In this document: piece by piece, positions 2,431-64,000 of the stretch
Numbering within the stretch: position 1 is the stretch's first letter
Layout: every line of letters begins with the position of its first letter
Source of the DNA: Mizuhopecten yessoensis
Taxonomy: Eukaryota
DNA: 64,000 nucleotides
NCBI RefSeq assembly: GCF_002113885.1
Contig: NW_018407597.1
Span: forward strand, 379,711-443,710
Reading direction: 5' to 3'
Made by a program: the position numbers and the translations under genes
The notes under the pieces: generated by a model
Database searches by the model: none
What the model saw: the letters and a program-made list of their open reading frames with translations, nothing else
What the model was told of the DNA's origin: nothing

Positions 2431-5400
2431 ATGGTAAGTATTCAATACTGGGTTCGGGAAAATATCAATCGTTTGTAGAGTCCAATTGTGATAAAATATG
2501 TTTTCAATTAAAAGGGCTTCAGTTTTAGTATATTTTTTATTGCGCAACGTTTTTCATCCTTTAACTGTCTGTTATAATGTACATGTGAAGTCATTGATTC
2601 AACGTTAATTCTTCAGGTTTGTTTCGGAAAAACGATTTTGTTTTTAATTTTAACAATCATTCCAAAGTTAAAAGATATTTACGATTCGATATTTTATGTG
2701 AATTGATACCTCTACTGTACACTCCTACATACTTACATACTCGGTAGTTTATTTAACTTCCTCACTTTTTGTTTTCTAGACAATCAGAATGCATGTGTTT
2801 ACTGGAATTATCTTCCTTCTCGGACTGAGCGCGTCATTTGCAGCAGTAACGAACACCAGGGTGGTCGTAAGTTAACCATATCATTTTTTCTTTACATCTT
2901 AGTAGAGTTTTGAAATGATTGAGTGAAGGGGTTTCGTGCACATGTCTCCCTGTTTCTACGTTGGTGAAGACATTTTAGATTTCCATCTCTTTGGTTGCCT
3001 AGCATCACTGACGAGCCCTAGGAGGACAGATGTATGATGCAGTGCGATTCATTTTTGGCAAATTGTATCTATAACAATATTTTAAATGTGTGTGTGTGTT
3101 AAGATCATCTAAAAACCTTTATTTTTGTGTTGATGAATTGTCATATTGTACTCACACGCATGAAAATAATGAGAAAATAGATTTATATATATTATAAAAG
3201 CAGAAAAATTATCCTTACGGACGAAGAAATGATGTAAAAAGAAAAATGCTCAACAACGAGCCTAAGTACTTTCATCTCTTCTAGGAGATAGATATATATA
3301 TCGAAGATAAATATATTGAGAAGAGATAAAGGTACAAAAGACCCCTTTGTTAAGAATTGTTCTTTAAGAATTTTTCTTTAAGTAAGATTATTTATGGAAT
3401 TCCTCTTGGTGTAGTAATTTTTAATTAATATTAACTTTTGTTTCACATCCAGGACACCTCCCACGCAGGCATACTGGCGGCAGTGGACACCATATTTCGA
3501 GCTAATGACCTCAACAACAACAGTAAAATGGAACTAGGCGAACTAGTGGCCAGTTATGCTCTGATCGATTACAACAGTATGTATAAATAAAAAAAAATGT
3601 ATCATATCACCAGTTCTTTAAGGATATCCGTTCCAATGTCTAATACTGTAACTAAGTGTTGGACATTGCTTAATCCGACATGACAATATATTTATCTTCG
3701 ATAATTAATTTCTGGAAAGAAACCCATACCTTAAATGGATTTAAGTCATAAAGATAAAATAAACAAAGTATAATCAACAGCAGTTCTGAGTGTAAAATTC
3801 CAGCGGGGTTCAGACTGGGGTTCGAACACTTGGTCACTCTTTATTTCCTTATGTTTACAACACATCGGAGAGTAGACATACATATGTACAAAATATCACA
3901 ATGTATAACACAAATTACAGTGGATGCAATAGTGTACAATGCATAACATAGATTATTAAAACACAATATACACATATGTGGGTATAACATACAGAACATG
4001 CAGTATTATATTTAGTTAAACAATATTATTTCGTCGTTTTGTACTTAGATGCAAAAATTTGCTTAGTTTATTTAGATCTTTAACGATTTTGGTATTGAAC
4101 AGTTCTATTAACTTGAAAACACTTGGTCGTTTGTAAAAATAAGGTTTAATATATTCATGCCTAAAATCATCATAAAATTTGCCTATAAATATCAAATGGA
4201 ATTCATCCTCAAGATCATTAACGTTACAGAATGTACAAAGTCGTTGTGTCTTGGTTGATTTCTGTACCTGCCTTGCTCAATATTTAAACTATGTGAGCTT
4301 AGTCTAAAACGTGTTAAGTACTTTTTGTATAAGTTATTGATAGGTTTTCTCAAATAGTATTATCTGTAGCTCTTAATTTTAACCAATATTTAATTATTCG
4401 AAGCTTTCTACTTTCTGCCAGTGGCATCCTTCCTAACTCATAATATACTAAACTATTACAGGTACTCTTTTTAACTCCGAGTAGCCGTTTACAAAAAAAA
4501 ATCATATGTATTTTCTAGACATTTAAAGCATTATGAAATCCCATTATCTCTGCACTGTAGCTCAAAATGCTATTTACATATGTATCAAAAACTGCACATT
4601 GTGTTTCAATATTAAAATTATGATTTTTTTATTTGCTACAAATTGCATAGTACGCCTTATTCGCTTGTTCTGGAACGTGTTTTTGTGTAACATTAAATTT
4701 ACCATTATAATTAAAAAGCATTCCTAAGTAATTAAACTGATTAACAACCACTTTTCGTTATTCCGTATTATGCCACCATTCCTGAAAACTACTACATTTT
4801 GTATTTTCGTCTTTTCTGTATTAATGTAAGCTTATATTTGTTATTTTATACTTTCAGAGCATCCATAACTTCCTGTAGTTTTTCTGGTGTTTCTGCAAAT
4901 AAAACCATATCGTCAGCGTACATCAACAGAAAAATATTAATCAAATTAAGTTCAATTGAAGGACATCCTTCCTTGATAAAATGTATTTCACAATCATTCA
5001 CGTACATGGAGTTCAAAATCGGCGACAATATTTCACCCTGAAAAAGACCAATCGTATTTGTGAAATAGTCAGAATAAACCCCATTATGCTTTATGCATGA
5101 TTTCACTGAGTTATATAAAGATTGTATGATTCGTAACATTTTCCCGCGTATACCCTGATTTATCAATTTACACCACAAATGAGATCTTTCAATTATATCG
5201 AAAGCCTTCTTATAATCTACAAAGCAACAATATAGTCTGCCACCCCTTTTGCTTAAATACTTATTAATTAATGTCTGAAGGACAAATATAGCATCAACAG
5301 TCGAGTATCCAGGCCTAAAACCAAATTGAGCATCCGTTATAATATTATTTTCGGTGTCCCAATACACTATTAGCCCATTCAATACTGATGTAATCAACTT

Positions 5401-7784
5401 TCTCATACAACTAACTAAAGTAATACCTCTATAATTATTCGTGTTTTCAATATCACCTTTTTATTTACTGGCGTGATACACCCAGTTGACGAAGATTCTG
5501 GGAAAAATCCTGCTTGAAAAACTGAGTTAAAATAATTAGTTATGTATGGTACTAGTATCTCTTTGCAATCAATGAATAATAGTTCGTTTAATGTTTTATC
5601 CTCACCAAAACTTTTATTTCTTTTCAATTATGTATTGCAGAAGTCACTTTATGTTCGGTAATTTCTTTATCCAATTCATCAAATATACAAGATTCATTAC
5701 TTTCAATATCTACGTCAGCATTTGAGTAATTTGTGTCACCTATTATATTTACTTGATTACTTAGATGTTTAAAATGGTTAAAAAAAATGGCAAGAGAAAT
5801 TTTGTGAGATACTTTAGATTTTCGTCTTGCAAAGTATTTATGGAAATGTTTCGGATTGTGTCTACGCAGATAACCCATCATATCACCTTCCTGTCTCCGA
5901 TATTTCCTCTTGAGTCTTGAGTGACATACACGATTTTGACTCACTATGCTTTTAACTGTAGTTTTTATATCCAGACGACGATAGGATCAGCAAGGGAGAA
6001 TACGTTGCTTCAGGCGGAAATAACCCCTTCTTCGGAGTCCTGTTCCAAGAACTTGACAACGATGGAGACGGATATCTCGACCGCTCGGCGATCCTTGGCG
6101 AATACACTGTTATGGATACAAATGGTAATTAGATAAAGGTCATACTAAATACTATGTGGCTCCACAGGCACATATTTATTTTTGAAATAACTTTATATTC
6201 TGTGGATATTTTAAACGGATAAAATGTTTTAGAGACATTACTCATTTCCACAAAGGAGTCGCAATGTCATAGGAAGGAAGTGATAATCTCATTCCTTTAT
6301 GTAATATTATACAATTTTGCCATAACTGTAGGAAAACACGATTCTTTATTTCTCCGATGTTAATCATGTTTCAAGAGGTCGAAACCCAAATCAAACATGT
6401 TGAATCGAAGAGAAAGGAAGCAAAAGTCCATGATTCCCTAAAGTAAGGGCAATACATGTTGTACTATGCCACAAAATAAAATAAAAAAGCGAACAGTAAC
6501 ACAATAGTAGATATGATCAGGTTGAGGCGCCATTATTGTCGTCTGCTTCCGTCAATCGGAACTAAGTTGTGTTGGCATTCGGAACAACTTGCCCCGATTA
6601 CAGAATGTTGTGGTGGCTTTTGTATATTTTTCTAGATAGGTTCCAAATAGGGGAAACATGAGAGGGGAAACTTGAGCGCTTGAGGGCGACATGATGTTTT
6701 ATTTACACGCCATGTGACCAGTATCATCCAATCAGACACGCTGTTATAAAGTTGAGGCATAATAATATTTAATAACAATATCGTTGTAATCTGTCTTATA
6801 AATATTTTATTTCCATGTATGTACGTAGCTGATAATGAAGTCAGTAGGCGGGAATACGATAACTATTTTGACAAGGTAAGTTAAATTGTAAACCTTTATG
6901 TGTCGGCTTCACGGTACAATCTCTCTGTATTAGACATAAACTTTATTTATTTTACAACAATTATGAATCAAGTTTTTACAACTTATATTATTCACTCTTA
7001 TTGGCCCGGATGCAATCGCGTGGGGTCTTAATGTAGGAGAAAACCGGAGTAACCGGAGAAAACCCGTGGACGTGGTCTGGCAGGTGACCCCTTACCTTTT
7101 CACGTCCGATCGGGGAATCGCACCCCGGCCGCCTTGGTGAAAGGCAAGTGCGCTATCCACTTAACCACCCGACTACCCAGTTAGATATCTGATTATGTTT
7201 TTAATCGCCATTACTTTAAACACCCAAACCACATAGTCAACCTTTTCTTTTATGGAACCCCATACCACTGTCAAAAACTGTAAATAATTATTGGAAACTG
7301 GTTTTATGTCGGCATACTTATAGATTTGATTAAAATCATTTTTGAAAAGAAAAGTGAATTCGGATTGCGACACTATCGTTCAATTGAGCTACCTGGTCAA
7401 AGGAAATATTCTAGCCAAATTAAACTGTGCTATAGTTGTATCCAAACAGAAGTTAAAGGAAGGTTACTGTTTATAGGGGGAAAAGCACGGTGCAGTTGGT
7501 CTTGGATCGTTAATATGACAGTTCAAAGGAAGGAATTGTTGCAAGTGGTAGATTGTATATATGACCAGCTTGTTTTGTGTGCTATTAATGTCAAAAAATT
7601 CTAAAGAGCGACATTATTTCAACGGTTTTTTTTTACCGCTTGGAATGATTGTGTGTGTAGACAATAAGAGAAAAGAACAATACTCGATAAGTTATCGTGC
7701 ATCTTTGGTTTTAAAACTTCAACATGTTTCTTTGAACAGATAGTTGAGTCAGCTTTGATGAATTACGGCCACCTCCTAGGGTAA
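2431..7784 (+). CDS. Secreted 4x EF-hand calcium-binding protein (147 aa from ATG 2789; 151 aa from ATG 2431), resembling molluscan shell-matrix EF-hand proteins
   Basis: Exons: [ATG 2431-2433], 2780(ATG 2789)-2866, 3453-3576, 5975-6124, 6829-6875, 7740-7784. All introns are GT-AG with consistent phases. Translation: (MTIR)MHVFTGIIFLLGLSASFAAVTNTRVVDTSHAGILAAVDTIFRANDLNNNSKMELGELVASYALIDYNNDDRISKGEYVASGGNNPFFGVLFQELDNDGDGYLDRSAILGEYTVMDTNADNEVSRREYDNYFDKIVESALMNYGHLLG*. Signal peptide plus loops DLNNNSKMELGE, DYNNDDRISKGE, DNDGDGYLDRSA and DTNADNEVSRRE. A further donor (GTAAGT, 7810) lies in the 3' UTR, with a possible acceptor at 9180. Confidence 0.88.
3836..5940 (-). mobile_element. 5'-truncated, frameshifted non-LTR retrotransposon (RTE-X-like), antisense within an intron of the EF-hand gene
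   Basis: RT motifs QFGFRPG, FVDYKKAFD, GLFQGEILSP and LMYADD (ORF 4846-5406). Upstream pieces at 5415-5944. C-terminal TRFRLSSHSLNIEQGRY...LCTFCNVNDLEDEFH near 4200-4315. 3' end near an AATAAAG at about 3840. Clade call is inferred from the C-terminal motif. Confidence 0.88.
6300..6766. mobile_element. Possible non-autonomous palindromic (Crypton-like) MITE, degenerate
   Basis: Imperfect internal inverted repeat around 6345-6420 and an end ...AAGTTGAGGCATAATAA. Confidence 0.3.
6935..7178 (-). mobile_element. tRNA-derived SINE with a V-domain-like core
   Basis: Reverse strand: A-box-like GGTGGTTAAGTGG, B-box-like GGTGCGATTCCCC, then GGGTTTTCTCCGGTTACTCCGGTTTTCTCCTAC and an AT-rich tail. Four related copies occur in the window. 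Confidence 0.8.
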
Positions 7785-22100: not shown

Positions 22101-22339
22101 TATACATATGATGATATTCATATCCAATATTTTCCAAACACAAGTTCCATTTTTCATCTCCTTTTGAACATTTGCGATCGCCTAGTTTAAATAAAAACAA
22201 ACAATTACACGTACGTTATTTAGTTTGGGTTGTTTATTAATTTTCGACAAATTGATAAAATATTTTTTTTAGCAACAAATTAAGAATTTGAGACTAAAAA
22301 AATAAACACCCACTAGACGTATCCGTTTGTTCAAGACTA

Positions 22340-24191: not shown

Positions 24192-24767
24192 ATTCCCGTA
24201 ACTTCACCTTGAAATAATATTTGGGGAAAATATAGAAATTAAAAAAAAAAAATGGTGAGAAACCACCATCATCAAATATACTTTTAATCTCATGAATTCA
24301 TAAAAAGGAATGTGTTTTTGCGTCGTGTAGGTTTAGTGATAACATGTTAAATGTAATGTACGGTTGAGTTCCAAACGGATGCCATTAGAAGTTTAATTCC
24401 ATTTTAAAACGAATTATCAATATTCACGAATGTGCCTATAAATACATCTGCATCCGCCGCTGTGCAAATAACACGCGAGCGCTGTATAGGTAAATACAGG
24501 TCAGAGTTAGGGTCAGAGACCGACACGCTTCCGCGAGCAAGTACATCTAAATCTAAGTACGTTAATTGTCTGCTATGAACTGCGTTTTAGGAGCGTGTTT
24601 AACCAAACGGTCTGTATGCGTTTGCGTTGCGTTTCCGTTGCGTTTCCGTTGCGTTTGCGTTCCGTTTGCGTTGAGTTTGCGTTGCGTTTGCGTTCCGTTT
24701 CCGTTGCTTTTGCGTTCCGTTTGCGTTGCGTTTGTGTTTAAACGTACAAGAAGAACGGTCCAGGGTC

Positions 24768-24871: not shown

Positions 24872-24985
24872 ACAATGTATAAAATAAATGCAACAGTATC
24901 AAATCTTTCTGAATCATCACACTCTAAAAACAGAAAGCCTTATTTTAGTCTTCTGATATTCAAACTTTGTTAAATTATTTTTCAG

Positions 24986-25806: not shown

Positions 25807-25924
25807 GAACGGGCTGCCCAGTAAGTCAATGTCTGTCTTATGTAAGTATATACACATTATATTTACATTTGCATGGCGTTGTCACTATCTAGGATATTTG
25901 AAAGATGTGTCGTTGATGGGACTT

Positions 25925-44040: not shown

Positions 44041-44256
44041 GAATTGCACAAGGTTAGACACCCGTCTGGCGTGTTTACAGCATTGCATGCATCATGTCGG
44101 TTGGAGATAGTAAGGAATGTGCCGAAGGGCATCTAAAAAACGAAGTATAGCGGAAGCCGTTTCTTTTTCACATGGCATTGGAGGAATCGCTGAGTGTATA
44201 TAAGGGGTATATCCCAAGCCAATCGTCAGTATTTTACACCGTCAAGTGAGGTAAGT
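44041..44256 (+). promoter_or_regulatory. B2 promoter: TATA 44197, Inr A 44228, exon 1 44228-44250
   Basis: TATATAAG, TCAGT and GAG|GTAAGT. Confidence 0.75.
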
Positions 44257-44467
44257 ATACACAAAGCTTCACGATTTCTGAAAAGTTCTCCTCATATTTA
44301 CAAACCAATATGTGATATTATGTTTGTTTAGTTTATATTTGGAAATTACAATTTAGCCTTATATTTTTAACTTTGATATATATATTTCTATATTTTGAAG
44401 CAAATTCCTTTAATGCCTTTCGCTTGACAGTATGCTTTGTTTTCTGTGTTACAGATATTCCGCCAAT

Positions 44468-45269
44468 ATGAGAACCGCCTGTGTCACCCTTTTTGTTGTC
44501 GTCGTCGCCCTGGGCCTCAGCGCCTGTCTTGGGCAGGAGTGGGATGATGTTTACGATGACGATAACTACTATGGTGTTCCACAGTATTCGAGTGGCGGAT
44601 ATGCGACGAGTTACCCTCAGTATGGTGGAATGACGTACGGAAATGGATACGGACAGGGTTACGGACACGGAAAGGGATACGGAAAGGGATACGGAAAGGG
44701 CTACGGAAGGGTTGAGAGCACTGTTATCCGTGCCCCTTACGCAGCGCCTATGCCAATGTATATGCCACCCCCACCTGTAATGCCCGTGGGAGGATTCGGA
44801 GGATTCGGAGGAGACGATGGCATTTTCGGTCAAAACAACGGTTTGAGTAAGTAGTTGAAATGTCTGAAGCAGATGTTTCATACACTTTTCTTTAAGTCAA
44901 GTTATAGAAAAAAAATGTTTTGCATGTCTGCTGTATTTTTAAACTACTAAAATGTTTTAAATGATTTTTATACTTCATATATGATAGCAATAATTTATGG
45001 ACTTTTTGGTTTAGATTTATGATTACAAAATGTGAAATGGCTTGTTATGTGTAAGGAACTTTTAAACATTTCAACTTAAAATTAAAGTCTTAAATAATAT
45101 TCACGTATATCATTGATATCTATATATAAACCTAACAGGTTTATTAACACCTATTACACAGACTTTGTAAAATATGTATTTAATAAATTTCGTTTCGCAT
45201 TTTTCAGTCTTAATGCTTTTGCTTCTGCCATTACTGCTCAGCAACTCCAACGGAGGACTGCTCGGTTAA
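44468..45269 (+). CDS. B2: paralog (146 aa)
   Basis: Exons 44468-44846 and 45208-45269. 3'-UTR intron 45316-45636. Confidence 0.92.
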
Positions 45270-48200: not shown

Positions 48201-51200
48201 ATCCTTCTAATGAGCCAATATTAAAAACAAATGTATGGTTATGTATTATAAAAAAAAGTAAAAAATGTATCATTCATTTTTAACAATAACAATTTTGTAC
48301 CATCTACAGTAAAATTGATTGTAATATTCAACGTTTCTTTCACTCCAACAGTTTGTACTCCAGATAAATGATGACTAAACCTTTGTTACGCGCCGGCTTC
48401 TTATTTTGCTCTTGATCTCCTGTCATTATACTATGATACCAAGTCCTTTATACACCTCTTTTAATTTGGTAACTTTTACTGTTTTAGATATAAAACAATT
48501 ACATAGTTTGCTATCACACACAACGATATTAAGGAGATAATGTATATCAATGCTTATCACTTGTTATTTTATGAAATATTTCATTTATTTATTTATCATT
48601 TTTGTTTTTGTATAATTCATTAAATTATTATGAATGGCCGGCATAGTGGTAGCGTACTCACCTTCCACCTAAATGAATGCGCTTGATTCCTTGATCGGAC
48701 GTGAAAAGGTACAGGGTCACCTGCCCGTCCACTTGGGTGTCTCCGGGTATCCCGGTTTCCTCATACATTAAAAAACCCTTGTGCGCTACATACTATACCA
48801 CCAATGCCATAATGACTAATTAATCTAAGTTTCATAAATTTGTTTTATAATGTTGTATATTAAGCAAAGTTTGATTTAATAATTATCATACTTATGTGCC
48901 AGTGACAGGAAGTGTAAACAAAAATTATTTTTATTGATCATTTGGAATCGTTTTGTTCTTGTCACAAAATAATACATCGGGTTTCCAATACATTATATCA
49001 AAATTATATAAAAACCCAGCATCTGAGTTTTAATAACATCATACAGCTTGACTGATACATGTTATCAAGAGATTTTTTAACGTATTTAAAATTCGTTTTT
49101 TAATTTGAAATTTTTCCGAAAATGTTAATATACATATGCTATTCTATTAATAAGTATTTATATCTAATTGCTTATATTCACTGTTCAAAGCTCTACACGT
49201 ATTCCTATTTAGAATTAAACGTCTTGAAATGATTTCATGGAAAGATGCTACGTATAGGAAACAATGTTACTTTAAAGGCTAAACTAATTTAAATTACATA
49301 CATTCCTTGACCATATCGAAGTGCTGCTGTCAACGAAGTGGTACTGCTGTGAAGTAGAAGGAGACAGATATTGCAAGAAAAACAGGGAAACCAATAGATT
49401 ATATTCAATGCGTATATGTGAGTTATCGATGTTTTAAAAATAAAATTTCTTTACCGAATTCTACACTCTAAATCATAAAAAGATGAAAAGGGATGATGTA
49501 AATACGTGGAAAGAACTAACTATGTTTTCAATTTTATCCATTTCCGGCGCAGTCGGTAACTCTTACTTTAGTATGAGGTTATTTGGAAGTGTACACTGTT
49601 GCTGCACATACTGTTGTGTTGCTCTTCGAATATATTTCGGCCTATGGACCCGGTTTTTTTTTGGAATTTGAGTGTTTAATTTATTGTAAGCTATAAGTAA
49701 CAGATTTTTTGGGGGAAATTCGAAAGTTTGCGCCTGTTAGGGGAATTGCTGAAACGTATTTGTAAACGCAAATATCCTTATTTATCGTAGATACAGCAAA
49801 TATACCATATCTAGACGTTTTGTAGAAATTAAACTGTTTAGCTATGCTTCGTCAGTTTTCACATTTCAAGACAATGTATGTATCAACGCAATGTCTGTAA
49901 CTTTGAAATTTGATGAGTTCAAATAACCACCTTCTTTTGGGAAATATCTGTGCTTGTCTTCTTCTGTGATTGAGGTTCTTTTTCCTAATACATTTGTACT
50001 ATATCTATCAACATTCAAAGAAATGGCTCCGAATTATACGCACATTGGACGTTTGAGTAATATTTCATAGCATTAACTAAACCGTGCTCGGAGATAGTGA
50101 AATACCCAGATCATTTACAAAGCATGTATAAACTACCTATAAAAATAATTGTAGAATGTTGCAAACTGAAAAACTGTTTCCGATTCAAACCACTCTTGAC
50201 CGAAGTCTTATTTAACATTGAAAACATAAGTCGAATTCCCAATATATTTCAAATTGAGAGAGAATATTTTGTTGTAATGACTACAAAGTGTCCAAAGGAA
50301 CATGTAATAATCACATAAACATGTAATACCCGATATCTGAGAAAATGTGTCAACGTTTATGTTCCATTAAAAACTAAAACGTACACCTAATGATATCGTT
50401 TTCATGGTAACTATTTTACAAATTTACATTTATACCCCTTATTATCAAATAAACAAACTACCTGTTTTAGGATAACACTTGTTGGTACATGAAAATATAC
50501 ATTATTATTAATTACACAAGCGACTTGTTTCAGGAAAATAATACTTATAGTGAAATGAAAACAAACCTTATTTTTAAATATACAAGCTACCATTTTAAGG
50601 ATTACAATGGTTTTCTTAAAATTGAAAATATGCAAGTATCCCATTTTCGTTGTTTGGTACTCATCACTTCGAACAAAAAGATAATGCTATATTGTTTTCG
50701 TTCATATCAACATTAATGCCAAAGATTTCAACGTAATTCAATTTAACATGTATGATCATTCAGAAATTTACAATTAATATAATGTAAACAAGCTTTCAAA
50801 CACATTTTATCTAATCTAATTTAATATACCTTCAGTCGGACTTTGTGGTTAAATGTAATGTCTTGCAATAAATTAATTAATATATAAAATACTACAAAAC
50901 AATTTATGTACCATTAACAAATTGATAAAAATGAACAGATTTACATGTGGAAAGACCTTGTAGTGACTTCTGTTGTTAAAAATGCTACCCTGCAAATTGA
51001 TATATTGCGAAGGGAACTACACGAAATATGTTTCAACAGATATTTGTTTGAAGGAGATACAGTTTTACTTTTTAATCTGATTACGTATCAAAATAACACG
51101 ACAGCTTACTGTTACGAGAGCTTACATATTTCTCAACATATTACATGAAATGTAACATGTCCATAAGTTAACTAATAGCAAACGCCAATGCCAATACTTT

Positions 51201-51240
51201 TCCCGTTTCAACGAAACCCTTGATGGCTTACCTGTACAAA

Positions 51241-51457
51241 GAATTGCACAAGGTTAGACACCCGTCTGGCCTGTTTACATCATTGCATGCATCATGTCGT
51301 CTCGGCGATAGTAAGGAATATGCCGAAGGGCATCTAAAAAACGAAGTATAGCGGAAGCCGTTTCTTTTTCACATGGCATTGGAGGAATCGCTGAGTATAT
51401 ATAAGGGGTATATCCCAAGTCAATCGTCAGTATTTTACACCGTTCACTGAGGTAAAT
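51241..51457 (+). promoter_or_regulatory. B3 promoter: TATA about 51398, Inr A 51429, exon 1 51429-51451
   Basis: Same layout as B2. Donor is GTAAAT. Confidence 0.72.
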
Positions 51458-51667
51458 AAACACAAAGCTACACGATTTCTGAAAAGTTCTCCTCATATTT
51501 ACAAACCAATATGTGATATTATATTTGTTTAGTTAAATTTGGAAATTACAATTTAGCCTTATATTTTTAACTTTGATATATATATTTCTATATTTTGAAG
51601 CGAATTCCTTTAATGCCTTTCGCTTGACAGTATGCTTTGTTTTCTGTGTTACAGATATTCCGCCAAT

Positions 51668-52465
51668 ATGAGAACCGCCTGTGTCACCCTTCTTGTTGTC
51701 GTCGTCGCCCTGGGCCTCAGCGCCTGTCTTGGGCAGGAGGGGGATGATGTTTACGATGACGATAACTACTATGGTGTTCCACAGTATTCGAGTGGCGGAT
51801 ATGCGTCGAGTTACCCTCAGTATGGTGGAATGACGTACGGACAGGGATACGGACACGGCAAGGGATACGGCAAGGGATACGGAAATGGATACGGAAAGGG
51901 CTACGGAAGGGTTGAGAGCACTGTTATCCGTGCCCCCTACGCAGCGCCTATGCCAATGTATATGCCACCCCCACCTGTAATGCCCGTGGGAGGATTCGGA
52001 GGATTCGGAGGAGACGATGGCATTTTCGGTCAAAACAACGGTTTGAGTAAGTAGTCGAAATTTCTGAAGCAGATGTTTTATACTTGATTCTTTAAATCAA
52101 TTTATAGAAAATAATGTTTTGCATGTCTGCTGTATTTTTAAACTCATAAAATGTTTTAAATGATTTTTATACTTCATATATGAAAGCAATAATTTATGAT
52201 TTTTTTTTTATTATGATTACAAAATGTGAAATGGCTTGTTATGTGTAAGGAACTTTTAAACATTTCAACTTAAAATTAAAGTCTTAAATAATATTCACTT
52301 ATATCATTGATATATATATATATAAACCTAACAGGTTTATTAACACCTATTACACAGACTTTGTAAAATATGTATTTAATAAATTTCGTTTCGCATTTTT
52401 CAGTCTTAATGCTTTTGCTTCTGCCATTACTGCTCAGCAACTCCAACGGAGGACTGCTCGGTTAA
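51668..52465 (+). CDS. B3: paralog (146 aa)
   Basis: Exons 51668-52046 and 52404-52465. 3'-UTR intron 52512-52833. W-to-G change near the mature N-terminus (QEGDD). Confidence 0.92.
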
Positions 52466-54914
52466 TTGGTTTATCCACCATGTTATTTATATCTCTGCAA
52501 CTACTATATATGTAAGTATCTCACAATCTCTATATGAAACATAGGATAAGAGTAAGATACAATGTAATTTACATTGAAGGAAAAGGAGCATACATACAGA
52601 CCAATGTCTTATATTAATCTTTGGAAAGAAAAATTTCCTGAAATAGAATAAATTACAAATGTATAAATATTTCATGTAATGATATACATTCAAGGGCAAG
52701 CAACCCCTATTTTTACATTGAATAAATTATTTCAACACAAAATAAATAAATAAATATTCAAAGATACATGAATATATTTTAATCATATCAATAATGATTC
52801 TGTTTCTAATATGATGTGTTTTTCTCGTTTCAGATATCGCGCAATATCATGTTATGTTTGGTTCATCTGTGGAAATCCGTCTGTTCATTGTTGTATTTAA
52901 ATATTATTATTGCTGCCGCTCATCATTCATTAATAAAAAAAACATGTACAATAAACATTTGATTTTGAATTAATTTATGATACATTCATATAGATTTTTG
53001 ATATATGTTGTTTATTTCCAATTTTTTACGTTAAATATTTTGCTATAATTCAAGGGAATACATATTATTTCCCGCAACATTGAACACGATTTTAGTTTGA
53101 CTACAATACAGCTTCTAGTTTCCATGAAAATGTATCTTCACATTTTTTTTTTGTATATATCATCGTTCAGTTTTATGAGTGGTAATTAATATGTATTGGT
53201 CTGAATTTTTAACAAAGTTTTCAGTACAAACAATGTGAATTCGAAATACCTATTATTGCTCACAAAGGTGAACAAGAGTTTATTTTCTAAAACACATTTT
53301 TCGTTTTCATAAAAATAGATAAATTCACATCGGGTTTTTTCATAAATGCATCATTATTCATTTTTTTGTATCGTAATATTTATTTCACTGTAACGAAAAT
53401 GCGCACGATTAAACGACGTATGCCAGTGAAATGATGTCAAAAGTTCGAATCGGTTCCTGAAGCAGTAATGCGATATCAACAAACATCATGGTACTTGTTT
53501 TCACACCATTCACATTCCATGGAGTGTAACTTTTATCCAGCGCTAGGTTTACTAATTTACTCTGTTTTACAAGTTCTCTCCAAATCAGAAACCATATGCG
53601 TTATATACAAACTGAAACATCACAAGAAAAGAAAAAGTTCCTATTCCGAAATATTCTTGGAAATGAGAACATCCTGTCTACAACACTTTTAAGTATAAGT
53701 GATGCTACCATGGCAGTAACCTAGTTAGGGTATTTAAGAGCTGTAGTGTAATTAACATGTTTGAAATAACATGTATGTCATATAAACATGGACATATATA
53801 TAATCTTGTTGTGTATTTATATTTAACAACAGATGTTTCCCATATTAAACACATGTTGCGAAGAATTTGCAGAATTACATAAATTCGGAAACGATAATAC
53901 ATACTATAAACAAGGACAGCGATTCCAATTGGTCGTACCTCGACTTATCCACTGCTGATCGTGCACTTAATTAAAACTGTTGCTATCAATGAATCGTTAA
54001 TGCAGCAGTAAACCAAAAAGAAAAATACATTCTATATCACCAGGCAAAGTATCTTTTATCCAGATATTACAATTTCTCTTTGGAAAACTAAAAAATGGAA
54101 AGAAGAAGAAGTTAAACTGTTCCTCACGATTACAACTTGTACAGTAGTACCTTTACCTTAACCTATTCTTAACTTAGTAACCTTCTGTCAGTAAATAGTA
54201 ACTATTGGCCGAGGAATTGTGCTAATATGAACTATAAGTTGTCAGCCATTCGTGATCAAACCCAATATTCATGTTATTCAACGCCATAGTCTCAGTAGCG
54301 CCTCCCAGTCCTTATCGGTTGGCTTGCCAAATATCTTGTCTAACCTAGCGCTATTTGCCTGTTATAGTCATTTAATGCATTCCCTGTAGCTCGTCCCGCA
54401 TATTACCTTAGAGATAAGGGAGAGCCTTGATGTGGACACCAGTGTTATAGTTTGCAAGGCAGTGATTCTTTTCTGGTAATAAATTAATTAGATTATTTTG
54501 GGTAATATAAGCAAAGCGTACAACATACTAAAACATCACAGTTCATTTGTGAGATAAATAAGCTGAGCGGGAATTCGATAGTTTGGTTATCGACATACCT
54601 TAAAAGCAAAAGCAGAGTGTGTTTAATATGCTGAATTGGCTGACACGATATCTGGAGTTTCATCAGGATCTACATTGCTTTTTCATCGTTTTATTTCTAT
54701 TTATTCATTCATTTAATAACAACAAGGAGATAATCTCAATCCATTTGCCAAAATAAATTTTCAGTTTATAAAAGTCAAATTTCCATCACGTACATACAAA
54801 AACAAACTTTTGAAAAAACCAACACCCACGTACACCTCTACTGGTCATGGATACAATAATAATAAAGTATATTTCTTCTCATAAGCTCTTACGGCGTATT
54901 AATATATAGCATGT

Positions 54915-56636
54915 GATAAGCAGAGCTTTAAAACAGTTCTTGTAATTAATTAATTCAACTGAGGGCATTAAAATGTTGAAATGCATATTTTATATATCCG
55001 TCCAATTTTAAAATACATTTTTATGGAACAGAATGCGAATGACGACCTGAAATAGTAGAAAGTGTTCCATTATAACTAGCTCACATTGCCACAGGTGGTA
55101 TTCACTTCGCTTGGTTGTAAATATTATACCGAGAGAAGCTTAACACCCCTACAACTATGGTAAATTATCATACCAGAAATACAACTGCAAACAATGATGC
55201 AGAAGACGTTTACCCGTCAGGCACAACTGGAATGATTCTCGTTGTACTTTTAAACGGTCTCTATGTAAAATTTCCTTTGTTCGTTTTTTACGCTAGTTTA
55301 AAAAAAATTGAATTCGAATTATGATTTGTTGATAATTCTGTATTTTCCTGTTTTTCCTGTTTTTCTGTCTTAAATAATAAATATTTAGAACAGCCGACCT
55401 TCCACTGTAAAACCTGACCAAGTTTCAATTGTATTTGATTGTCAATAATCTAATTTCAGTGTCAATCGATAATGTTTGTGGCAGCAGATCAGATTTAATC
55501 TACCTTGCTATATTGCCGATGGGGTTTAGTTCTTTAACTGATGACATAGGTTTCGCAAACGTTGAATTACACGGTAATAAAACTGTAAATGTCATTTTAT
55601 ATTGCTCTGAATTAACAAAAGAAAAAGATACTGCTCGGCAGATATACATTATCATCTTACAATAAACAATATCATCGTACACAGAATGCTTGTCCATTAG
55701 GAACTTTTAATGAGATGAAAATATGTATGGAAATATTGAAATGAGATGAAATCGAGGTCAATATCAATTTATATGTCCATATAACCACATATTCAACAAA
55801 GAATTTTTGTCTTTGATAAAATATTATAATTAAGGATTAACATTCTATTTAGTTTAGGTTATCGGGTGATAACTACAATGGAACTCGAAGCCGATTATGA
55901 TTAGGCCACCGTGACATGATACGACTAGACTAGGACTTATACGAACAAAATCGGCTGCATATCTTTAAAATAAACATCACATTGGTTTGTATGTTCGCTC
56001 TTAAACATGTAATCATAACTCATTAGCGATTATTCTTACTTCAAAGTTGATCTTTTCGGCTATTTTTAGCACAACTTGCAAAGTTGCGTAAGCCGATGCA
56101 CTCATACAATACTTCACTCGCGCTCGTTAACTGTTATAATAAAATCATATCGTTGTCATTCCATTTACAGTTTTTCTCAACGTTTATATTTAATACCCAA
56201 AGATGTCCCGTTTGATTCCGGAACGCTATAATATGGCACAAACGGCTCGCAGTTTTGGAACTCTCCCGTATTTTTGTAGACTCCACGGCAACGGTAACTA
56301 GGCATAGCGTCTACAAAATCATAAACATTCGAAGCAATTTGATAATTTTGATTTTAACTTCAATCATTAGAAAACCCAGTTCTTGAACTAACTATCAGTA
56401 TTTAGGCAGGCATAATTATGACATGTAGGTCATGTAAATTTATCGAACCCGTCCTGTGATTACCATTATCTACCAGTCTTATCGAGTGCAGTTGAAAATA
56501 TTACGGCAAAATTGTTGTTTATCGAACGTTATTGTCAAAATTGAATTTACTATTTTATTTCTGGGTACTGTTTACACCATGTCATCAAAGTAAGAGTATG
56601 TAAATGAACACGTAGAAAAACACAAAATCCAGCCGT
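54915..56636. other. ~1.72 kb segment present only in unit 3
   Basis: Unit 2 reads TAGCATGT|CCTGTCAGTCGG contiguously. Here the two halves are separated by 1722 bp, with GT at both junctions. Confidence 0.85.
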
Positions 56637-59600
56637 CCTGTCAGTCGGTGCAGTCATCAAAGAGTCGGGCGCTGTAAACAACGACGTCATCTGAATGTAT
56701 AAATTTAACAATGTATTTATACATTTCAACAATGTATCTTTTGCATGAATACACTAATGAGTTGTACAAAACTGGTATCCCCGGTACTTCTGTTTACTAT
56801 CGAAAATAGCAATGGAAACCCCCGGATTGTTGACGTACACATATGTACAAGATGTATGTATTACTAGGGGAACGAGAATGACTGTCGTTATCGAGTGATA
56901 ATGACAATATAACCTCAACAAAGGTTATTGAGTCAATTACACTTGAAACTGTAAATATTGTATTTTATTGATAAATAAGTTGGATCGCGTGAGCACAGCG
57001 TCATGAGGAAAGTTCTGTATTTTTCATATATTATTTGACTTTATAATTAGTATATTGACTGATGTTTGCTTAAAATGTAACTAAATAATATAACACATTA
57101 TTAAGTTCCATGATATATTATTCATGAGGATGAATGGAAATTTATTTCGTCTTATAATATGCTTCATAGCAAATTTGACTATCCTTCTAATGAGCCAGTA
57201 TTAAAAACAAATATATGGTTATGTATTATAAAACAAAAACAAAAAAATGTATCATTCATTTTTAACAATAACAATTTTGTACCACATTCAGTATAATTGA
57301 TTGTAATATTCAACGATTCTTTTACTCGACCAGTTTGTACTCCAGATAAATGATGACCAAACCTTTGTTCCACGCCGGCTTCTTATTTTGCTCTTGATCT
57401 CCTGTGATTATACTATGATACCAAGTCTTTTACACACCTCTTTTAATTTGGTAACTTTTACTGCTTTAGATATAAAACAATTACATAGTTTGCTATCACA
57501 CACAACGATATTAAGAAGATAATGTATTTCAATGTTTATCACTTGTTATTTTATTAAATATTTCATTTATTTATTTATCATTTTTGTTTTTGTATAATTC
57601 ATTAAATTATTATGAATGGTCGACCGGCAGAGTGGTAGCGTACTCACCTTACACCTAAATGAATGGGCTTGATTCCCTGATCGGACGTGAAAAGGTACAG
57701 GGTCACCTGCCCGTCCACTTGGGTGTCTCCGGGTATCCCGGTTTCCTCATACATTAGAATACCCTTGTGCGCTACATACTATACCACCAATGCCATAACG
57801 ACTAATCAATTTAAGTTTCATAAATTTGTTTAATAATGTTGTATATTAAGCAAAGTTTGATTTAATAATTATCATACTTATGTGCCAGTGACAGGAAGTG
57901 TAAACAAAAATTATTTTTATTGATCATTTGGAATCGTTTTGTTCTTGTCACAAAATAATACATCGGGTTTCCAATACATTATATCAAAATTATATAAAAA
58001 CCCAGCATCTGAGTTTTAATAACATCATACAGCTGGACTGACACATATCATCAAGTGATTTTTTAACGTATCGAAAATTCGTTTTTTAATTTGAAACTTT
58101 TCCGAAAATGTAAATATTCATATACTATTCTATTAATAATTATTAATATTTAATTGCCTATATTCAATGATTCTACACGTATTACTGTTTAGAATTTAAA
58201 CGACTTAAAATGATTTCATGGAAAGATGCTACGTATAGGGAACAATGTTACTTTAAAGGCTAAAATAATTTAAATTACATACATCTCTTGACCATATCGA
58301 AGTGCTGCTGTCAACAAAGTGATACTGCTGTGAAGTAGAAGGAGACAGATATTGCAAGAAAAACGGGGAAACCAATAGATTATATTTATTTCGTATATGT
58401 GACTTATCGATAACAGTAAGATGTTTTAAGAATGAAATTTCTTTACAACATTCTACACTCTAAATCATAAAAAGTTGAAAAGGGATGATGTAAATACGCG
58501 GAAAGAACTAACCATGTTTTCAATTTTATCCATTTCCGGCGCAGTCGGTAACTCTTACTTTAGTTTGAGGTTATTTGACGGGTACACTGTTGCTGCACAT
58601 ACTGTTGTGTTGCTCTTTGAATACATTTCGGCTCATGGACCCGGGTTTTTTCGGAAAATGAGTGTATAAGTTATTGTAAGCTATTACTAAAATATTTTTT
58701 TGGGGGGAAATTCGAAAGTTTGCGCCTGTTAGGGGAATTACTGAATCAAATTTGTAAACGCAAATATCCTTAGTTATCGTAGATACAGCAAATATACCAT
58801 ATCTAGACGTCTTGTAGAAATTAAACTGCTTATCTATCCTTCTTCATTTTTCACATTTCAAGATGTATGTATCAACGCAATGTCTGTAACTTTGAAATTT
58901 GACGAGTTCAAATAACCACCTTCTTTTGGGAAATATCTGTGATTGTCTTCTTCTGTGATTGAGGTTCTTTTTCCTAATACATTTGTACTATATCTATTAA
59001 CTTTCAAAGAAATGGCTCCGAATTATACGCACATTGGACGTTTGAGTAATTTTTCATAGCATTAACTAAACGGTGCTCGGAGATAGTGGAATACCCAGAT
59101 CATTTACTATGGATGATAAAAACTACATTTAAAAATAATTGTAGAATTTTGCAAACTGAAAAACTGTTTCCGATTCAACCACTCTTGACCAAAGTCTTAT
59201 CTAAAATTGAAAACAATAGGTCGAATTCCCAATACATTGTATATTTACAAATTTGTCATTGTTAGTAAAAAATATAAAAAGATGTTTTCATGATACGAAC
59301 GCTACATGTAGGAGAAAATTTTGTTGTAATGACTACAAAGTGTCCAAAGTAACATGTAATAATCATAAAAACATGTAATACCCGATATTTGCTGAGAAAA
59401 TGTATCAACGTGTATGTTCCTTAAAAAAACACCGTACACCTGATGATATCGTTCATGGTAACTATTTTACAATTTTACATTTATACCCCTTATTATCAAA
59501 TAAACAAACTACCTGTTTTAGGATAACACTTGTTGGAACATGGAAATATACATTATTATTTGATACACAAGCGACTTGTTTCAGTGAAACAATACTTATT

Positions 59601-60164
59601 GTGAAATGAAAATAAATCTTATTTTTAAATATAAGTATCCCATTTTTGTTGTCTGCTACTCATCACTTCGAACAAAAAGATAATGCTATTTTGTTTTCGT
59701 TCGTATCAACATTAATGCCAAAGATTTCAACGTAATTCAATTTAACATCTATGATCTTTCAGAAATTTACAATAAATACAATGTAAACACACTTTCAAAC
59801 ACATTTTATCTAATCTAATTTAATGTACCTTCAGTCGGACTTTGTGGTTAAATGTAATGTCTTGCAATTAATTAATTTATATAAAATACTACAAAACAAG
59901 TTATCTAAATAAAAAATTGATAAAAATGAATAGATTTATATGTGGAAAGACCTTGTAGTGACTTTCATTTGATCTGTTGTTAAAAATGCTAGCCCTTCAA
60001 ATTGTTATATTGCGAAGGGAACTACACGAAATATGTTTCAACAGATACTGTTACGAGAGCTTACATATTTCTCAACATTTTACATGAAATGTAACATGTA
60101 CATAAGTTAACTAATACCAAACGCCGACGCCAATACTCTTCCCGTTTCTGCTTACCTGTACAAA

Positions 60165-60381
60165 GCATTGCACAAGGTTAGACACCCGTCTGGCGTGTTT
60201 ACATCATTGCATGCATCATGTCGTCTCGGCGATAGTAAGGAATATGCCGAAGGGCATCTAAAAAACGAAGCATAGCGGAAGCCGTTTCTTTTTCACATGG
60301 CATTGGAGGAATCGCTGAGTGTATATAAGGGGTTTATCCCAAGTCAATCGTTAGTATTTTACACCGTTCAGTGAGGTAAGT
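60165..60381 (+). promoter_or_regulatory. B4 promoter: TATA 60322, Inr TTAGT (A 60353), exon 1 60353-60375
   Basis: Same layout as B2 and B3. Confidence 0.72.
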
Positions 60382-60604
60382 AAACACAAAGCTACACGAT
60401 TTCTGAAAAGTCCTCATATTTACAAACCAATATGTGATATGATATTTTTGTATAGTTTATATTTGGAAATTACAATTTAGCCTTATATTTTTAACTTTGA
60501 TATATATATTTCATATTTATATTTCTATATTTTGAAGCAAATCCCTTTAATGCCTTTCACTTCACAGTATGCTTTGTTGTCTGTGTTACAGATATTCCGC
60601 CAAT

Positions 60605-61905
60605 ATGAGAACCGCCTGTGTCACCCTTTTTGTTGTCGTCGTCGCCCTGGGCCTCAGCGCCTGTCTTGGGCAGGATTGGGATGATGTTTACGATGACGAT
60701 AACTACTATGGTGTACCACAGTATTCGAGCGGCGGATATGCGACGAGTTACCCTCAGTATGGTGGAATGACGTACGGAAATGGATACGGAAAGGGATATG
60801 GACACGGCAAGGGATACGGAAAGGGATACGGAAAGGGCTACGGAAGGGTTGAGAGCACTGTTATCCGTGCCCCCTACGCAGCGCCTATGCCAATGTATAT
60901 GCCACCCCCACCTGTAATGCCCGTGGGAGGATTCGGAGGATTCGGAGGAGACGATGGCATTTTCGGTCAAAACAACGGTTTGAGTAAGTAGCCAAATTTC
61001 TGAAGCAGATGTTTCATACTTGATTCTTTAAATAAATTGAAAGAAAAAAGTGTTTTGCATGTCTGCTGTATTTTTTTTACTTATTTGTAAACAAAATGCT
61101 TTTTAAATGTGCTAAATTTTCTATGTAATATTGGAGCAAATTTTACTGCATATCCCTTGTATATTGCTCATTTTAATGTTACTCAATTGAATAACTTTAA
61201 AAAGAGAAATGAAAATAACTTACATAAAAAGGTATGATGCGACAACATAAAAAACCTGTCATGTTTCTCAAGACGGCAAAAATGTTCAATAAAATGATTT
61301 TATTAACAAATGAATAAACCTAGCAAGAAAACTGTCCCGAAGTGAAGAAAAGCATTTTAATTTCTATCAGTTATTTTTATAAACTGACCTTTATGACGGG
61401 GTGTTCATTTTTGGTTACCAGACAAGCGAAAATCTTCAATCGAACTTAATTCAACTAAATGTGTGAAACCTAAAAAAAACACCAAAAAACCCCAACGAAG
61501 CTGCAGCCATCTTTGTTTCAATTAAGTAGCTTATGGTGTTCCAGAGGCTATATAGAAAATATTAATATTTTTCTTTTAAAAGTGTGACATATCGGATAGC
61601 AACACGTTTTAATAATCAGTGTGTTATTAAATCTGTTGGGAGCTTAAATAACTTAAGCTCATAAAATGCTGATGCAGAGAATGGGGAATGTGTGTAATGA
61701 ATGAATTGAATATTTTAATCAAAATATTAAGTTGGCCTGAAATCATATTTATTAGTAATCAATTTGCATTGTACCTGAAATATGTCAAAACTCCTTGCAC
61801 TAAATCGTATAAATACTTATTAATTTCGTTTCGTATTTTTCAGTCTTCCTGCTTTTGTTGCTGCCATTCCTGCTCAGTAACTCCAACGGAGGACTTCTCG
61901 GTTAA
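60605..61905 (+). CDS. B4: paralog (146 aa) with a divergent 3' half
   Basis: Exons 60605-60983 and 61844-61905 (tail IFLLLLLPFLLSNSNGGLLG*). Intron 2 is 860 bp versus about 360 bp in B1-B3. 3'-UTR intron 61957-62280 and AATAAA near 62390-62405. Confidence 0.9.
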
Positions 61906-64000
61906 TTTGTTATTCAACATGACTGTTATATCTGTCTCTACAACTACTATATATATGTAAGTATAACGCAATCTCTATCCAAAACATTCGCTAAGAGTAA
62001 GATACGGCGTAATTTTGAATGCATAAACACTAACTTATTTGCTCAATCTTTGAAAACAAAATCTCAAAAATGGGACGAATAATACATGCATAAACATTAA
62101 TGAAATAATTTATATTCAAAGGCAAGCAACACCGATTTATTTATAAAGATAGGTATTTTTTTAAATCTCTTAGAAAAGAAAAGAAAAAAACAGTGTGTAT
62201 TCTTGCAGTTGTAATTCATTTGACATTGACGCACATTAAAAATGATCCTGTCTCTAATATGATGTTTTTACTCGTTTCAGATCTCGCGCAATATCACGTT
62301 ATGTTAGGCTGAACTGTGGAAATCCGTCTTATCATTGTTGAATTGATGTATTTAAATATCATTTTTGTTGCCGCTCATCATTCATCAATAAAAATTGTAC
62401 AATAAAACATATGATTTGGACTTAATTTATGATACATATATATGGATTTATGATATATTATTATTTTCCATTGCTTATTTTTAACATTTTGTTATAATTT
62501 AGGGGAATATATATTATTGCTCACAAAATTGAACGCGATTTCATTTTCTAAAAAACAGTTTCTCATTTTTACGAAATACATCTTTATATTTTATCATAAA
62601 TGTAGCAACGTCAATTTTATGAGTGATAATATGTAATGCATTGGATTTTGATTAAATGTTCTGTACAAAAACAATGTGATTCGATATATTTTTTCACATA
62701 TAATCAACACGATTATAGCGTTTCTCGATTTCAATTTGATCTTGAAATATAATCGATGGCATATCTGCCTATTTCCATTGCTATTGTTGAAAAATGTATT
62801 ACAATGTTCAAATATGAAACGATGACCGATTAAATACGAAGAGATGATTTCAAGAAATTGAGAAGCAGTCAAGCTGTATTTCATGAAAAAAAAATCGATT
62901 TGTTGACGAGTGACATGCTACTATTTGATATAAAGTAATGAATGTGCTGTTTTCACCAACTAGCGCCCGTGGTATGATATACATAATGAAATAACTAATG
63001 CATTGTTATTGTAATATGTTACTAGGGTAATCATGACGTTCCATTGACTTATAGATTTAATAACCGATCACAGTTGTTCTGAGTTTCATCAGACATTAAA
63101 ATCATGTGGTTACTTATCAAATATGACAAATTATAAGATGCTAAACATATTCCCACATTCTTCATTCGTTGGATCATTTTCACGTGGAGATCAATGTTTT
63201 GTGATATTGACTATTCATTACTTTTTGAGTTTCTATTTTAGAAACATTCTGTCAATATTCTCTTCAAGATGTCACTTCAATTGCTCTCTGCCAAAATGCA
63301 GTATTATTCTCTTGGTTATTTTATTATATTTCATTTTAATAATGAAAAGAGCATTATTGCATATGTAATATGATGTTTAAGGAATTTTATATTGGTGAAT
63401 ATGCCTCAGTCAATATATCCTTTCGAGTCCATATAAATACAAATTACCTCAAACACATTGATAAATATCACACCACATAAATTCTATATAACACAGCAGT
63501 TACATGATTCATTGCTATAACGTAGACAGAATAGAACGATAAATGCTACAACTTATTAACACGAAGTAGGAGGAACTGAACTCGGCCTAGACACGAGATG
63601 ATAGCAGGATTCTAAGAGATTCCAAAACAGAATATTGTAAAATATGCAAACTAAAAAAAGTGATAAAAAACATTGTTACAAAAATCCATTAAGTACTGTT
63701 TTGTTATCTTCGAACAGGTTGGGTTATTACGGATTGATATGCATGTTCTTGACATTTACGATGATATGAAACTCAATTATTTACATAAATATTCAATGGC
63801 GGAAGAAGCCCATCAAGGATAATTTATTGATAAACAACTTTTTTTTTACCATTATGCATACATTTATATCTGTTCTTATCGTTATATTTAAAACAAAACT
63901 AAACATTCTATTGCATGCATCTGTCTGTGTGGTTTCGTTTCGTTTCCTTCTTTCCTCAGCGTTGGTTGCTTTTTCCGCCAGACGACAAACAACAACCAGA

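What the first reader, a model, noticed from the sequence alone, without database searches (positions are those of the whole stretch)
2431..62410. Candidate biomineralisation/extracellular-structure cluster: Ca2+-binding EF-hand gene next to five Gly/Tyr-rich structural genes
Seen: every host gene found in the 64 kb is on the plus strand, short and signal-peptide-bearing. One is a Ca2+-binder and five are GY-rich low-complexity proteins. Inference: a co-regulated secretory locus (mantle, periostracum, byssus or larval shell) pairing a mineral-ion handler with a cross-linkable scaffold family. Adjacency alone does not prove shared function.
Basis: inference. Interest (0 to 1): 0.7.

Follow-up and report, generated by a model that had tools for sequence, protein, structure and literature searches.

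The report
Scallop glycine-tyrosine gene array, unlinked EF-hand
Five neighbouring scallop genes are tandem copies of one family of small glycine/tyrosine-rich proteins that likely help build a toughened outer layer, and the calcium-binding-type gene beside them was silent in the one RNA sample where they were switched on, so this looks like an ordinary duplicated gene array and not a co-ordinated shell-building unit.

Summary
The six genes are real. The co-regulated cluster is not supported. The EF-hand gene (6 exons, 151 aa) equals a database protein named from Mizuhopecten yessoensis. The five Gly/Tyr-rich (GY) genes are one family: four are recent tandem copies (CDS 92-97% identical, 7.2-8.9 kb apart), one is divergent, and three more follow downstream. 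Their shared strand is therefore a product of duplication. RNA reads from 4 runs of 4 studies (tissues coded) show GY0 and the GY1-type genes on in 1 of 4 runs (roughly 730 and 15,000 RPKM) and zero in 3. The EF-hand gene stayed below 1x depth in all 4, including the GY-on run. The pairing does not recur at the other EF-hand or GY loci examined. Tissue and synteny remain unknown. Verdict: ordinary tandem array of likely structural proteins; interest 0.25.

The parts
2431..7784 (+). EF-hand gene, 6 coding exons (2431-2433, 2780-2866, 3453-3576, 5975-6124, 6829-6875, 7740-7784); 151 aa; hydrophobic N-terminus; four EF-type loops at residues 49, 69, 99, 119, three ending in Glu
   Evidence: silent (depth <1) in 4 of 4 RNA runs
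24986..27210 (+). GY0, divergent family member: CDS 24986-25301 + 25754-25806 (122 aa); intron in the 3' UTR (joint 25841>27122). First non-coding exon probably 24468-24490 behind a TATA box (inferred from sequence, outside the stretch laid)
   Evidence: joints with 827 and 213 reads in X17; single copy in genome; family profile hit E=2.3e-04 (as P0012)
36894..38526 (+). GY1: TATA 36894, non-coding exon 1 ending 36946, exon 2 37189-37616, tail exon 37979-38086 (stop 38040), UTR exon from 38409; 158 aa
   Evidence: joints with 92, 8320 and 3742 reads in X17 (paralogue reads included)
44197..45269 (+). GY2: CDS 44468-44846 + 45208-45269; 146 aa; tandem copy
51398..52465 (+). GY3: CDS 51668-52046 + 52404-52465; 146 aa; database protein P0002 is this gene with 12 extra N-terminal residues
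60322..62410 (+). GY4: CDS 60605-60983 + 61844-61905; 146 aa; UTR exon from about 62281 with poly(A) signals near 62390-62410 (by homology to GY1)
37184..62689 (+). Tandem duplication units of 7.2-8.9 kb, each with one GY gene and its flanks; longest aligned block 5580 bp at 95.5%
22338..24192 (-). Young Crypton-type tyrosine-recombinase element, interrupted by a 47-N assembly gap; not a host gene
   Evidence: 10 genome places 100% identical over 170 aa; 640-aa ORF elsewhere with DUF3504 E=4.7e-21 and Phage_integrase E=1.8e-04
4019..5986 (-). Decayed LINE fragment inside intron 3 of the EF-hand gene
   Evidence: RVT_1 E=8.3e-26
31613..34977 (-). Decayed LINE between GY0 and GY1
   Evidence: RVT_1 hits

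Best explanation
This is a tandem array of one family of small Gly/Tyr-rich genes, likely encoding secreted precursors of a tanned organic layer such as periostracum or shell framework, and the EF-hand gene beside it is likely a separately regulated neighbour. SHOWN: one blueprint in all copies (hydrophobic N-terminus; acidic Asp block in GY1-4; Gly-Tyr-Gly-Lys-type repeats; Pro run; Leu-rich tail on its own phase-1 exon); recent head-to-tail duplication; joint, very high, restricted expression of GY0 and GY1-type genes; EF-hand gene silent in that same sample. INFERRED: the N-terminus is a signal peptide; unequal crossing-over built the array and gene dosage serves a high-output secretory cell type; Gly-flanked Tyr residues are cross-linked outside the cell by peroxidase or tyrosinase, as proposed for Lymnaea and Pinctada Gly/Tyr-rich mantle proteins; the Leu-rich tail holds the precursor on a membrane or drives its self-association (about even odds between these). 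The EF-hand protein likely binds Ca2+ extracellularly through three canonical loops in another tissue or stage. My odds per step: duplication explains the co-orientation 0.95; EF-hand gene not co-regulated with GY 0.75; GY proteins structural and cross-linked 0.7; mantle-derived rather than foot/larval/other 0.55.
For: Duplication: repeat spacing 7266, 7200, 8937 bp; CDS identity 92.2-97.1% among GY1-4; three more copies downstream on the same contig and further arrays on other contigs. Expression: in X17 exon-2 bins have depth 944 (GY0) and 23,180 (GY1 plus paralogues), 0 in X20, X21, X22; reads typical of GY5 and GY6/7 appear as loose ends in X17. EF-hand exon bins 0.08-0.59 in X17, no EF joints in any of 4 runs; rough RPKM 15,000 and 730 against under 1. 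No recurrence: the genome search gave 4 EF-family exon matches, 2 on this contig and 2 on C2897; 50 kb fetched around the C2897 pair hold no GY gene, and the GY loci fetched on other contigs hold no EF-family exon. Analogy: Gly-flanked Tyr proteins in the Lymnaea mantle belt proposed as peroxidase substrates (PMC6007483, passages); Tyr/Gly-dominated PM241 at the periostracal groove (PMC3191542, passages).
Against: Tissue and stage of X17 are coded, so 'mantle/periostracum' rests on analogy alone. Only one GY-on sample was tested, about 19 in 100 of its reads; the EF-hand gene was silent everywhere, so its real site of action may still overlap in another stage or mantle zone. The array sits in a wider run of secreted-protein genes (temptin + Cu monooxygenase, second EF-hand paralogue) between SYF1-like and choline-transporter-like genes, which could reflect a shared secretory domain. 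No proteomic evidence was found. Tyr-rich proteins are also main parts of scallop byssus (PMC9168380, passages). Ca2+ binding, cross-linking and secretion were not tested.
Confidence: 0.62

Rival explanations
1. One reading: a co-regulated biomineralisation locus in which the EF-hand protein handles Ca2+ for a scaffold built from the GY proteins.
For: Physical adjacency (17 kb), same strand, hydrophobic N-termini; a second EF-hand paralogue and a temptin + Cu-monooxygenase gene lie directly upstream; GY1-4 carry an Asp-rich block that could bind Ca2+.
Against: EF-hand gene under 1x depth in the run where GY genes reach 944-23,180x; pairing not repeated at other EF or GY loci; Temptin_C gave 48 exon matches over more than 20 contigs, so such a neighbour is not rare.
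Confidence: 0.15
2. The GY proteins are not freely secreted scaffold but cell-surface proteins: the C-terminal tail is a GPI-addition signal or short membrane anchor that holds a Gly/Tyr/Pro-rich chain on the apical face of a secretory epithelium (glycocalyx or cell-to-shell attachment).
For: 7 of 7 proteins compared end in a 12-13-residue Leu-rich run plus 6-9 nearly uncharged residues, each with a small-residue omega-like candidate 28-34 residues from the end; a similar tail exon follows 7 of 8 copies scanned on other contigs; the tail is kept in an oyster homologue (P0010, E=8.5e-13).
Against: The omega rule used is my own loose filter, recalled from the literature, with no shuffle control; no GPI predictor was available. 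The tail is conserved letter for letter with a fixed Pro, more than GPI signals usually are (recalled), and 12-13 residues is short for a helix across a membrane.
Confidence: 0.3
3. The GY family serves a non-shell secreted structure (byssus or foot gland, hinge ligament, larval or egg coat), not mantle periostracum.
For: Expression is restricted to 1 of 4 studies of unknown tissue; Tyr-rich proteins are main components of scallop byssus (PMC9168380).
Against: Six family motifs were not found in the 2 supplementary files of that byssus paper (whether those files hold sequences was not checked); a homologue is kept in an oyster, whose adults have no byssus (recalled).
Confidence: 0.25
4. GY1-4 are partly an assembly artefact: haplotypes of fewer genes laid in tandem.
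For: Units are 91-96% alike over kilobases; tiny contigs carry allele-like versions of GY5 and GY6/7.
Against: No assembly gap lies within 37-64 kb of the window; four distinct units exceed two haplotypes; X17 reads carry letters specific to different copies (tables 5c and 7); Ylistrum has two near-identical proteins with consecutive accessions on one record.
Confidence: 0.07

Closest known systems
Shematrins (Pinctada prismatic-layer matrix proteins; known here through passages of PMC3896809 and PMC3191542)
   Same: Small secreted Gly/Tyr-rich low-complexity proteins of a multigene family.
   Different: Shematrins end in a basic RKKKY-type signature; these end in a Leu-rich hydrophobic run. 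No sequence link: the family profile returned 7 proteins among 1.84 billion representatives; the 5 that carry names are uncharacterised or automatically named scallop and oyster proteins.
Lysine-rich matrix proteins, KRMP (Pinctada; passages of PMC3896809, PMC3191542)
   Same: Signal peptide plus Gly/Tyr-rich region thought to be quinone-tanned.
   Different: No Lys/Trp-rich domain after the signal peptide (GY1-4 have an Asp-rich block there) and no RKYKY-type end.
Lymnaea Lstag-sfc-6/-7/-8 and Pinctada maxima PM241 (passages of PMC6007483, PMC3191542)
   Same: Gly-flanked Tyr repeats in secreted proteins of the periostracum-forming zone; best functional analogy.
   Different: Their sequences were not compared here; the Lymnaea proteins are described as basic, GY1-4 carry an acidic block; their mantle location is shown, ours is not.
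[quoted passage not shown]
   Same: Same size; feature scores 0.92-0.93 and TM 0.59-0.67 to three mollusc-dominated clusters; 48-58% identical homologues in Pecten maximus and a paralogue in this species.
   Different: No solved structure matches at E<=0.001 (model pLDDT 57.6). Loops are paired 20 residues apart and the third loop lacks Glu-12 in 4 of 4 sequences. A link to IMSP5 could not be tested.

Membership tests
Shematrin | N-terminal signal peptide and Gly/Tyr-rich repeats | tested here: met
   hydropathy and composition, (signal peptide by hydropathy only)
Shematrin | Basic C-terminal RKKKY-type signature (PMC3896809) | tested here: not met
   all five end in a Leu-rich run plus uncharged or nearly uncharged residues
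KRMP | Lys/Trp-rich domain directly after the signal peptide | tested here: not met
   Asp-rich block in GY1-4, Gly/Tyr/Gln in GY0
KRMP | RKYKY-type C-terminal motif | tested here: not met
Molluscan shell/periostracum RLCD proteins (broad class) | Secreted, repetitive low-complexity, lineage-restricted, no Pfam domain | tested here: met
   0 Pfam families for P0002-P0004, P0009, P0010; relatives named only from scallops and one oyster
Molluscan shell/periostracum RLCD proteins (broad class) | Mantle expression and presence in shell or periostracum proteome | tested here: inconclusive
   restricted, very high expression in 1 of 4 runs, tissue coded; gene ids not found in full text or in the supplements searched
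EF-hand superfamily | Helix-loop-helix with 12-residue Dx[DN]x[DN]...E loop | tested here: met
   Pfam EF-hand_1 and EF-hand_6 above cut-off; 3 of 4 loops end in Glu
EF-hand superfamily | Measured Ca2+ binding | not testable with these tools
   needs ITC or 45Ca overlay
IMSP5-like secreted EF-hand shell proteins | Sequence homology to IMSP5 and presence in shell matrix | not testable with these tools
   no IMSP5 sequence was returned by any search; the resemblance is recalled only
GPI-anchored proteins | Small-residue omega site, spacer and terminal hydrophobic stretch | tested here: inconclusive
   pattern present in 7 of 7 by a loose rule without control
Co-regulated multi-family gene cluster | Co-expression of the different gene families | tested here: not met
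   same four runs; one informative (GY-on) run
Co-regulated multi-family gene cluster | Linkage conserved in related species | not testable with these tools
   no related genomes held; no species other than this one returned both an EF-hand and a GY homologue

The most novel reading that the evidence does not exclude
The GY genes define an undescribed pteriomorph family (scallops to oysters) of membrane-tethered or GPI-anchored scleroprotein precursors: the conserved Leu-rich tail pins a cross-linkable Gly/Tyr chain to the surface of the secreting epithelium, so that the tanned layer is nucleated on, or bonded to, the cell membrane before release. That would give a concrete molecular handle on how periostracum or shell matrix is attached to and extruded from mantle cells.
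Probability: 0.2. Interest if true: 0.55.

Novelty: new member of a known kind. Interest (0 to 1): 0.25.

Why it matters
As found, it matters little: tandem arrays of small Gly/Tyr-rich genes are a familiar kind of molluscan locus, and the one surprising claim (a mixed, co-regulated mineral-ion plus scaffold cluster) failed the test that could be run. What is left is practical: a very highly expressed, uncharacterised family of eight genes on this contig and more elsewhere, partly mis-modelled in public annotation (GY0 fused to transposon sequence; GY3 with an extended N-terminus; no database protein returned for GY1, GY2 or GY4), with a conserved hydrophobic tail that named Gly/Tyr shell families lack. 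If that tail anchors the proteins to the cell surface, the family would be a direct way to test how the organic layer is tied to the cells that make it.

Tried and rejected
Minus-strand ORF at 23117-24106 as a host gene: rejected, young Crypton-type element. RefSeq-type GY0 model P0012 with 57 extra residues: those come from the opposite strand of that element, so probably an artefact. Keratin-associated (KRTAP, E=0.011) and TrAA12 (E=0.0012) Pfam hits: below cut-off, composition-driven. In one search EF exon 4 was given in the wrong frame, so its blank means nothing; the whole protein was scanned. ESM Atlas for the GY protein: one hit at 0.76, within chance. AlphaFold of the EF-hand protein: low confidence, Foldseek no match at E<=0.001. 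P0011: unrelated repeat protein, dropped; P0013 shares only the N-terminal part and was left out of the tail comparison. Synteny through accession numbers and record lengths: no second species gave both families. LOC110456139 and LOC110456140 are flat-versus-round mantle DE genes in PMC11464482 Supplementary Table 3 with ids close to those of this contig's genes, but I could not tell which genes they are (exact look-up of the 146-aa GY3 failed), so they are not used as evidence. Literature: ten searches; 0 papers name the four ids tried; one search was swamped by geology papers and is uninformative; none of the 15 papers listed contains 'GPI-anchor'. Temptin + Cu-monooxygenase neighbour as the cross-linking enzyme: not pursued, common family, expression not tested.
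Full report
1. What is in the window. Six host genes were reconstructed from splice sites. The EF-hand gene has six coding exons from 2431 to 7784; its 151-aa product equals database protein P0001, named 'uncharacterized protein LOC110456147 [Mizuhopecten yessoensis]', whose contig has the same length as the one that holds the window. Pfam gives EF-hand_1 (E=7.9e-07) and EF-hand_6 above their cut-offs. Four EF-type loops start at residues 49, 69, 99 and 119; three end in Glu and the third does not, in 4 of 4 homologues. The five GY genes encode 122-158 aa with 15-25% Gly and 10-11% Tyr. The remaining long ORFs are LINE pieces and a Crypton-type element at 22338-24192.

2. The five GY genes are one family. 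GY1-4 lie 7266, 7200 and 8937 bp apart, their CDS are 92.2-97.1% identical and flanks align over kilobases at 91-96%. GY0 is divergent and single-copy but has the same exon plan and is found by the family profile (E=2.3e-04). The array continues past the window with GY5 (in-frame TAG in this assembly), GY6 and GY7. The genome search scored 29 candidates and kept 21 matches: 8 rows on this contig (7 genes) and 13 on 8 other contigs, some of them probably allelic fragments. Co-orientation of the five therefore follows from duplication, and the nearest host genes beyond the EF-hand pair and beyond GY7 are on the minus strand: a temptin + copper monooxygenase gene upstream and a choline-transporter-like gene downstream.

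3. Expression test. Raw reads of four RNA runs from four studies (X17, X20, X21, X22; tissue coded; 18-24 in 100 of each run read) were laid on 24930-38600 and on 2300-9800. In X17 the exon-2 bins reach depth 944 for GY0 and 23,180 for GY1 with its paralogues; in the other three runs they are 0. Five GT-AG joints are confirmed with 92 to 8320 reads, including an intron in the 3' UTR of both genes, and loose ends show GY5- and GY6/7-type transcripts too. The same runs on the EF-hand gene give exon-bin depths of 0-0.59 in X17 and no exon joint in any run; the reads that do map lie on intronic repeats. Rough RPKM in X17: about 15,000 (GY1-type, summed), 730 (GY0), under 1 (EF-hand). So the GY family is co-expressed and restricted, and the EF-hand gene is not co-expressed with it in the one informative sample.

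4. Does the pairing recur? The EF exon-4 search found 4 matches: this gene, a paralogue about 11 kb upstream of the window, and two on contig C2897. Fifty kb around the C2897 pair hold no GY gene, and the GY loci fetched from other contigs hold no EF-family exon. Across species, EF homologues were returned for Pecten maximus only and GY homologues for Ylistrum, Argopecten and the oyster Saccostrea echinata only, so synteny could not be tested.

5. What the GY proteins look like. After a hydrophobic N-terminus come an Asp-rich block (GY1-4), Gly-Tyr-Gly-Lys-type repeats, a Pro run, a short conserved Gly/Asp/Asn motif and, on a separate phase-1 exon, a Leu-rich run of 12-13 residues followed by 6-9 almost uncharged residues. 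This tail is present in 7 of 7 proteins compared, among them the oyster homologue, and a similar tail exon follows 7 of 8 copies scanned on other contigs. It excludes membership of shematrins and KRMPs, which end in basic RKKKY/RKYKY-type motifs (PMC3896809, passages). It fits the outline of a GPI-addition signal by a loose rule recalled from the literature, without control; a short membrane anchor or a self-association segment are the alternatives.

6. Most likely working. Shown: tandem amplification, joint and very high restricted transcription, independence from the EF-hand gene in that sample. Inferred: the proteins enter the secretory path, and Gly-flanked Tyr residues are oxidatively cross-linked into a tough organic layer, as argued for Lymnaea sfc-6/-7/-8 (PMC6007483, passages) and Pinctada PM241 and KRMPs (PMC3191542, passages). 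Mantle edge or periostracum is the best guess (0.55); foot or byssus is a real rival, as Tyr-rich proteins are main byssus components in a scallop (PMC9168380, passages; family motifs absent from its 2 supplementary files). The EF-hand protein belongs with mollusc-dominated clusters of 133-145 aa EF-hand proteins (scores 0.92-0.93, TM 0.59-0.67); its fold model is weak (pLDDT 57.6) and has only sub-threshold matches to calmodulin-like structures. Ca2+ binding is likely but untested.

7. Literature seen. Search listings. Passages only: PMC6281612, PMC3191542, PMC11464482, PMC3896809, PMC9168380, PMC8933548, PMC6007483, PMC10543319. Supplement searches: PMC10687851 (no hit), PMC11464482 (and one part in 69; lists DE genes only; the ids of P0001, P0012 and P0014 do not appear), PMC9168380 (no hit). 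No paper naming these genes or describing the Leu-rich tail was found in these searches; most subscription journals are not covered. Two earlier AI notes describe Gly/Tyr gene clusters in a mussel and a clam (unchecked), in line with such arrays being common.

8. Verdict. Observation confirmed; interpretation partly supported (structural GY family plausible, co-regulated mixed cluster not supported). New member of a known kind. Interest 0.25. The boldest reading left open, a membrane-tethered scleroprotein family, has probability about 0.2 and would merit about 0.55.

Noticed in passing
window 22338-24192 (-); full copies L037, L038, L039: Recently active Crypton-type tyrosine-recombinase element: 10 places 100% identical over 170 aa, 640-aa ORF with DUF3504 and integrase motifs, 3' end with an inverted-repeat hairpin (22339-22510); 150 related places scored.
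   Followed up: partly
G000:C4270:341,000-353,950 (-), L013-L014: Temptin + Cu2-monooxygenase (N and C domains) gene, DBH-like, about 12 kb upstream of the second EF-hand paralogue; Temptin_C has 48 exon matches genome-wide. Expression not tested.
   Followed up: partly
G000:C4270:366,060-371,060 (+), L011-L012: Second EF-hand paralogue with the same exon plan, 42-67% identical by exon; its signal-peptide exon was not located.
   Followed up: partly
G000:C4270:463,500-475,500, L002-L004: Between GY6 and GY7 lie four 2.5-kb tandem units that each carry only a copy of the Leu-rich tail exon, without the main coding exon: dead partial duplicates or alternative last exons.
   Followed up: no
G000:C4270:452,245 (L001) and L029: GY5 has an in-frame TAG in this contig, while a 345-bp contig carries an open version and GY5-type reads are abundant in X17: polymorphic stop or assembly error.
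   Followed up: partly
window 25841>27122 and 38086>38409: Both GY0 and GY1 have an intron in the 3' UTR, 35 and 46 nt behind the stop codon, just inside the roughly 50-nt distance that avoids nonsense-mediated decay (rule recalled; joints).
   Followed up: no
L021-L028, L031 (contigs C76666, C4057, C5196, C74597, C812, C48885): A second subtype of the family with Gly-Ser-Gly-Tyr repeats forms arrays in mixed orientation on other contigs and has the same tail exon.
   Followed up: partly
window 12794-13489: Perfect 179-bp inverted repeat with 338 bp between the arms; other hairpin or MITE-like repeats at 18315-18502, 26221-26365 and 28077-28268, the last two covered by reads from many loci in all four runs.
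   Followed up: no
window 1-279: 52-bp satellite that continues upstream into a 1427-N assembly gap between the two EF-hand paralogues.
   Followed up: no
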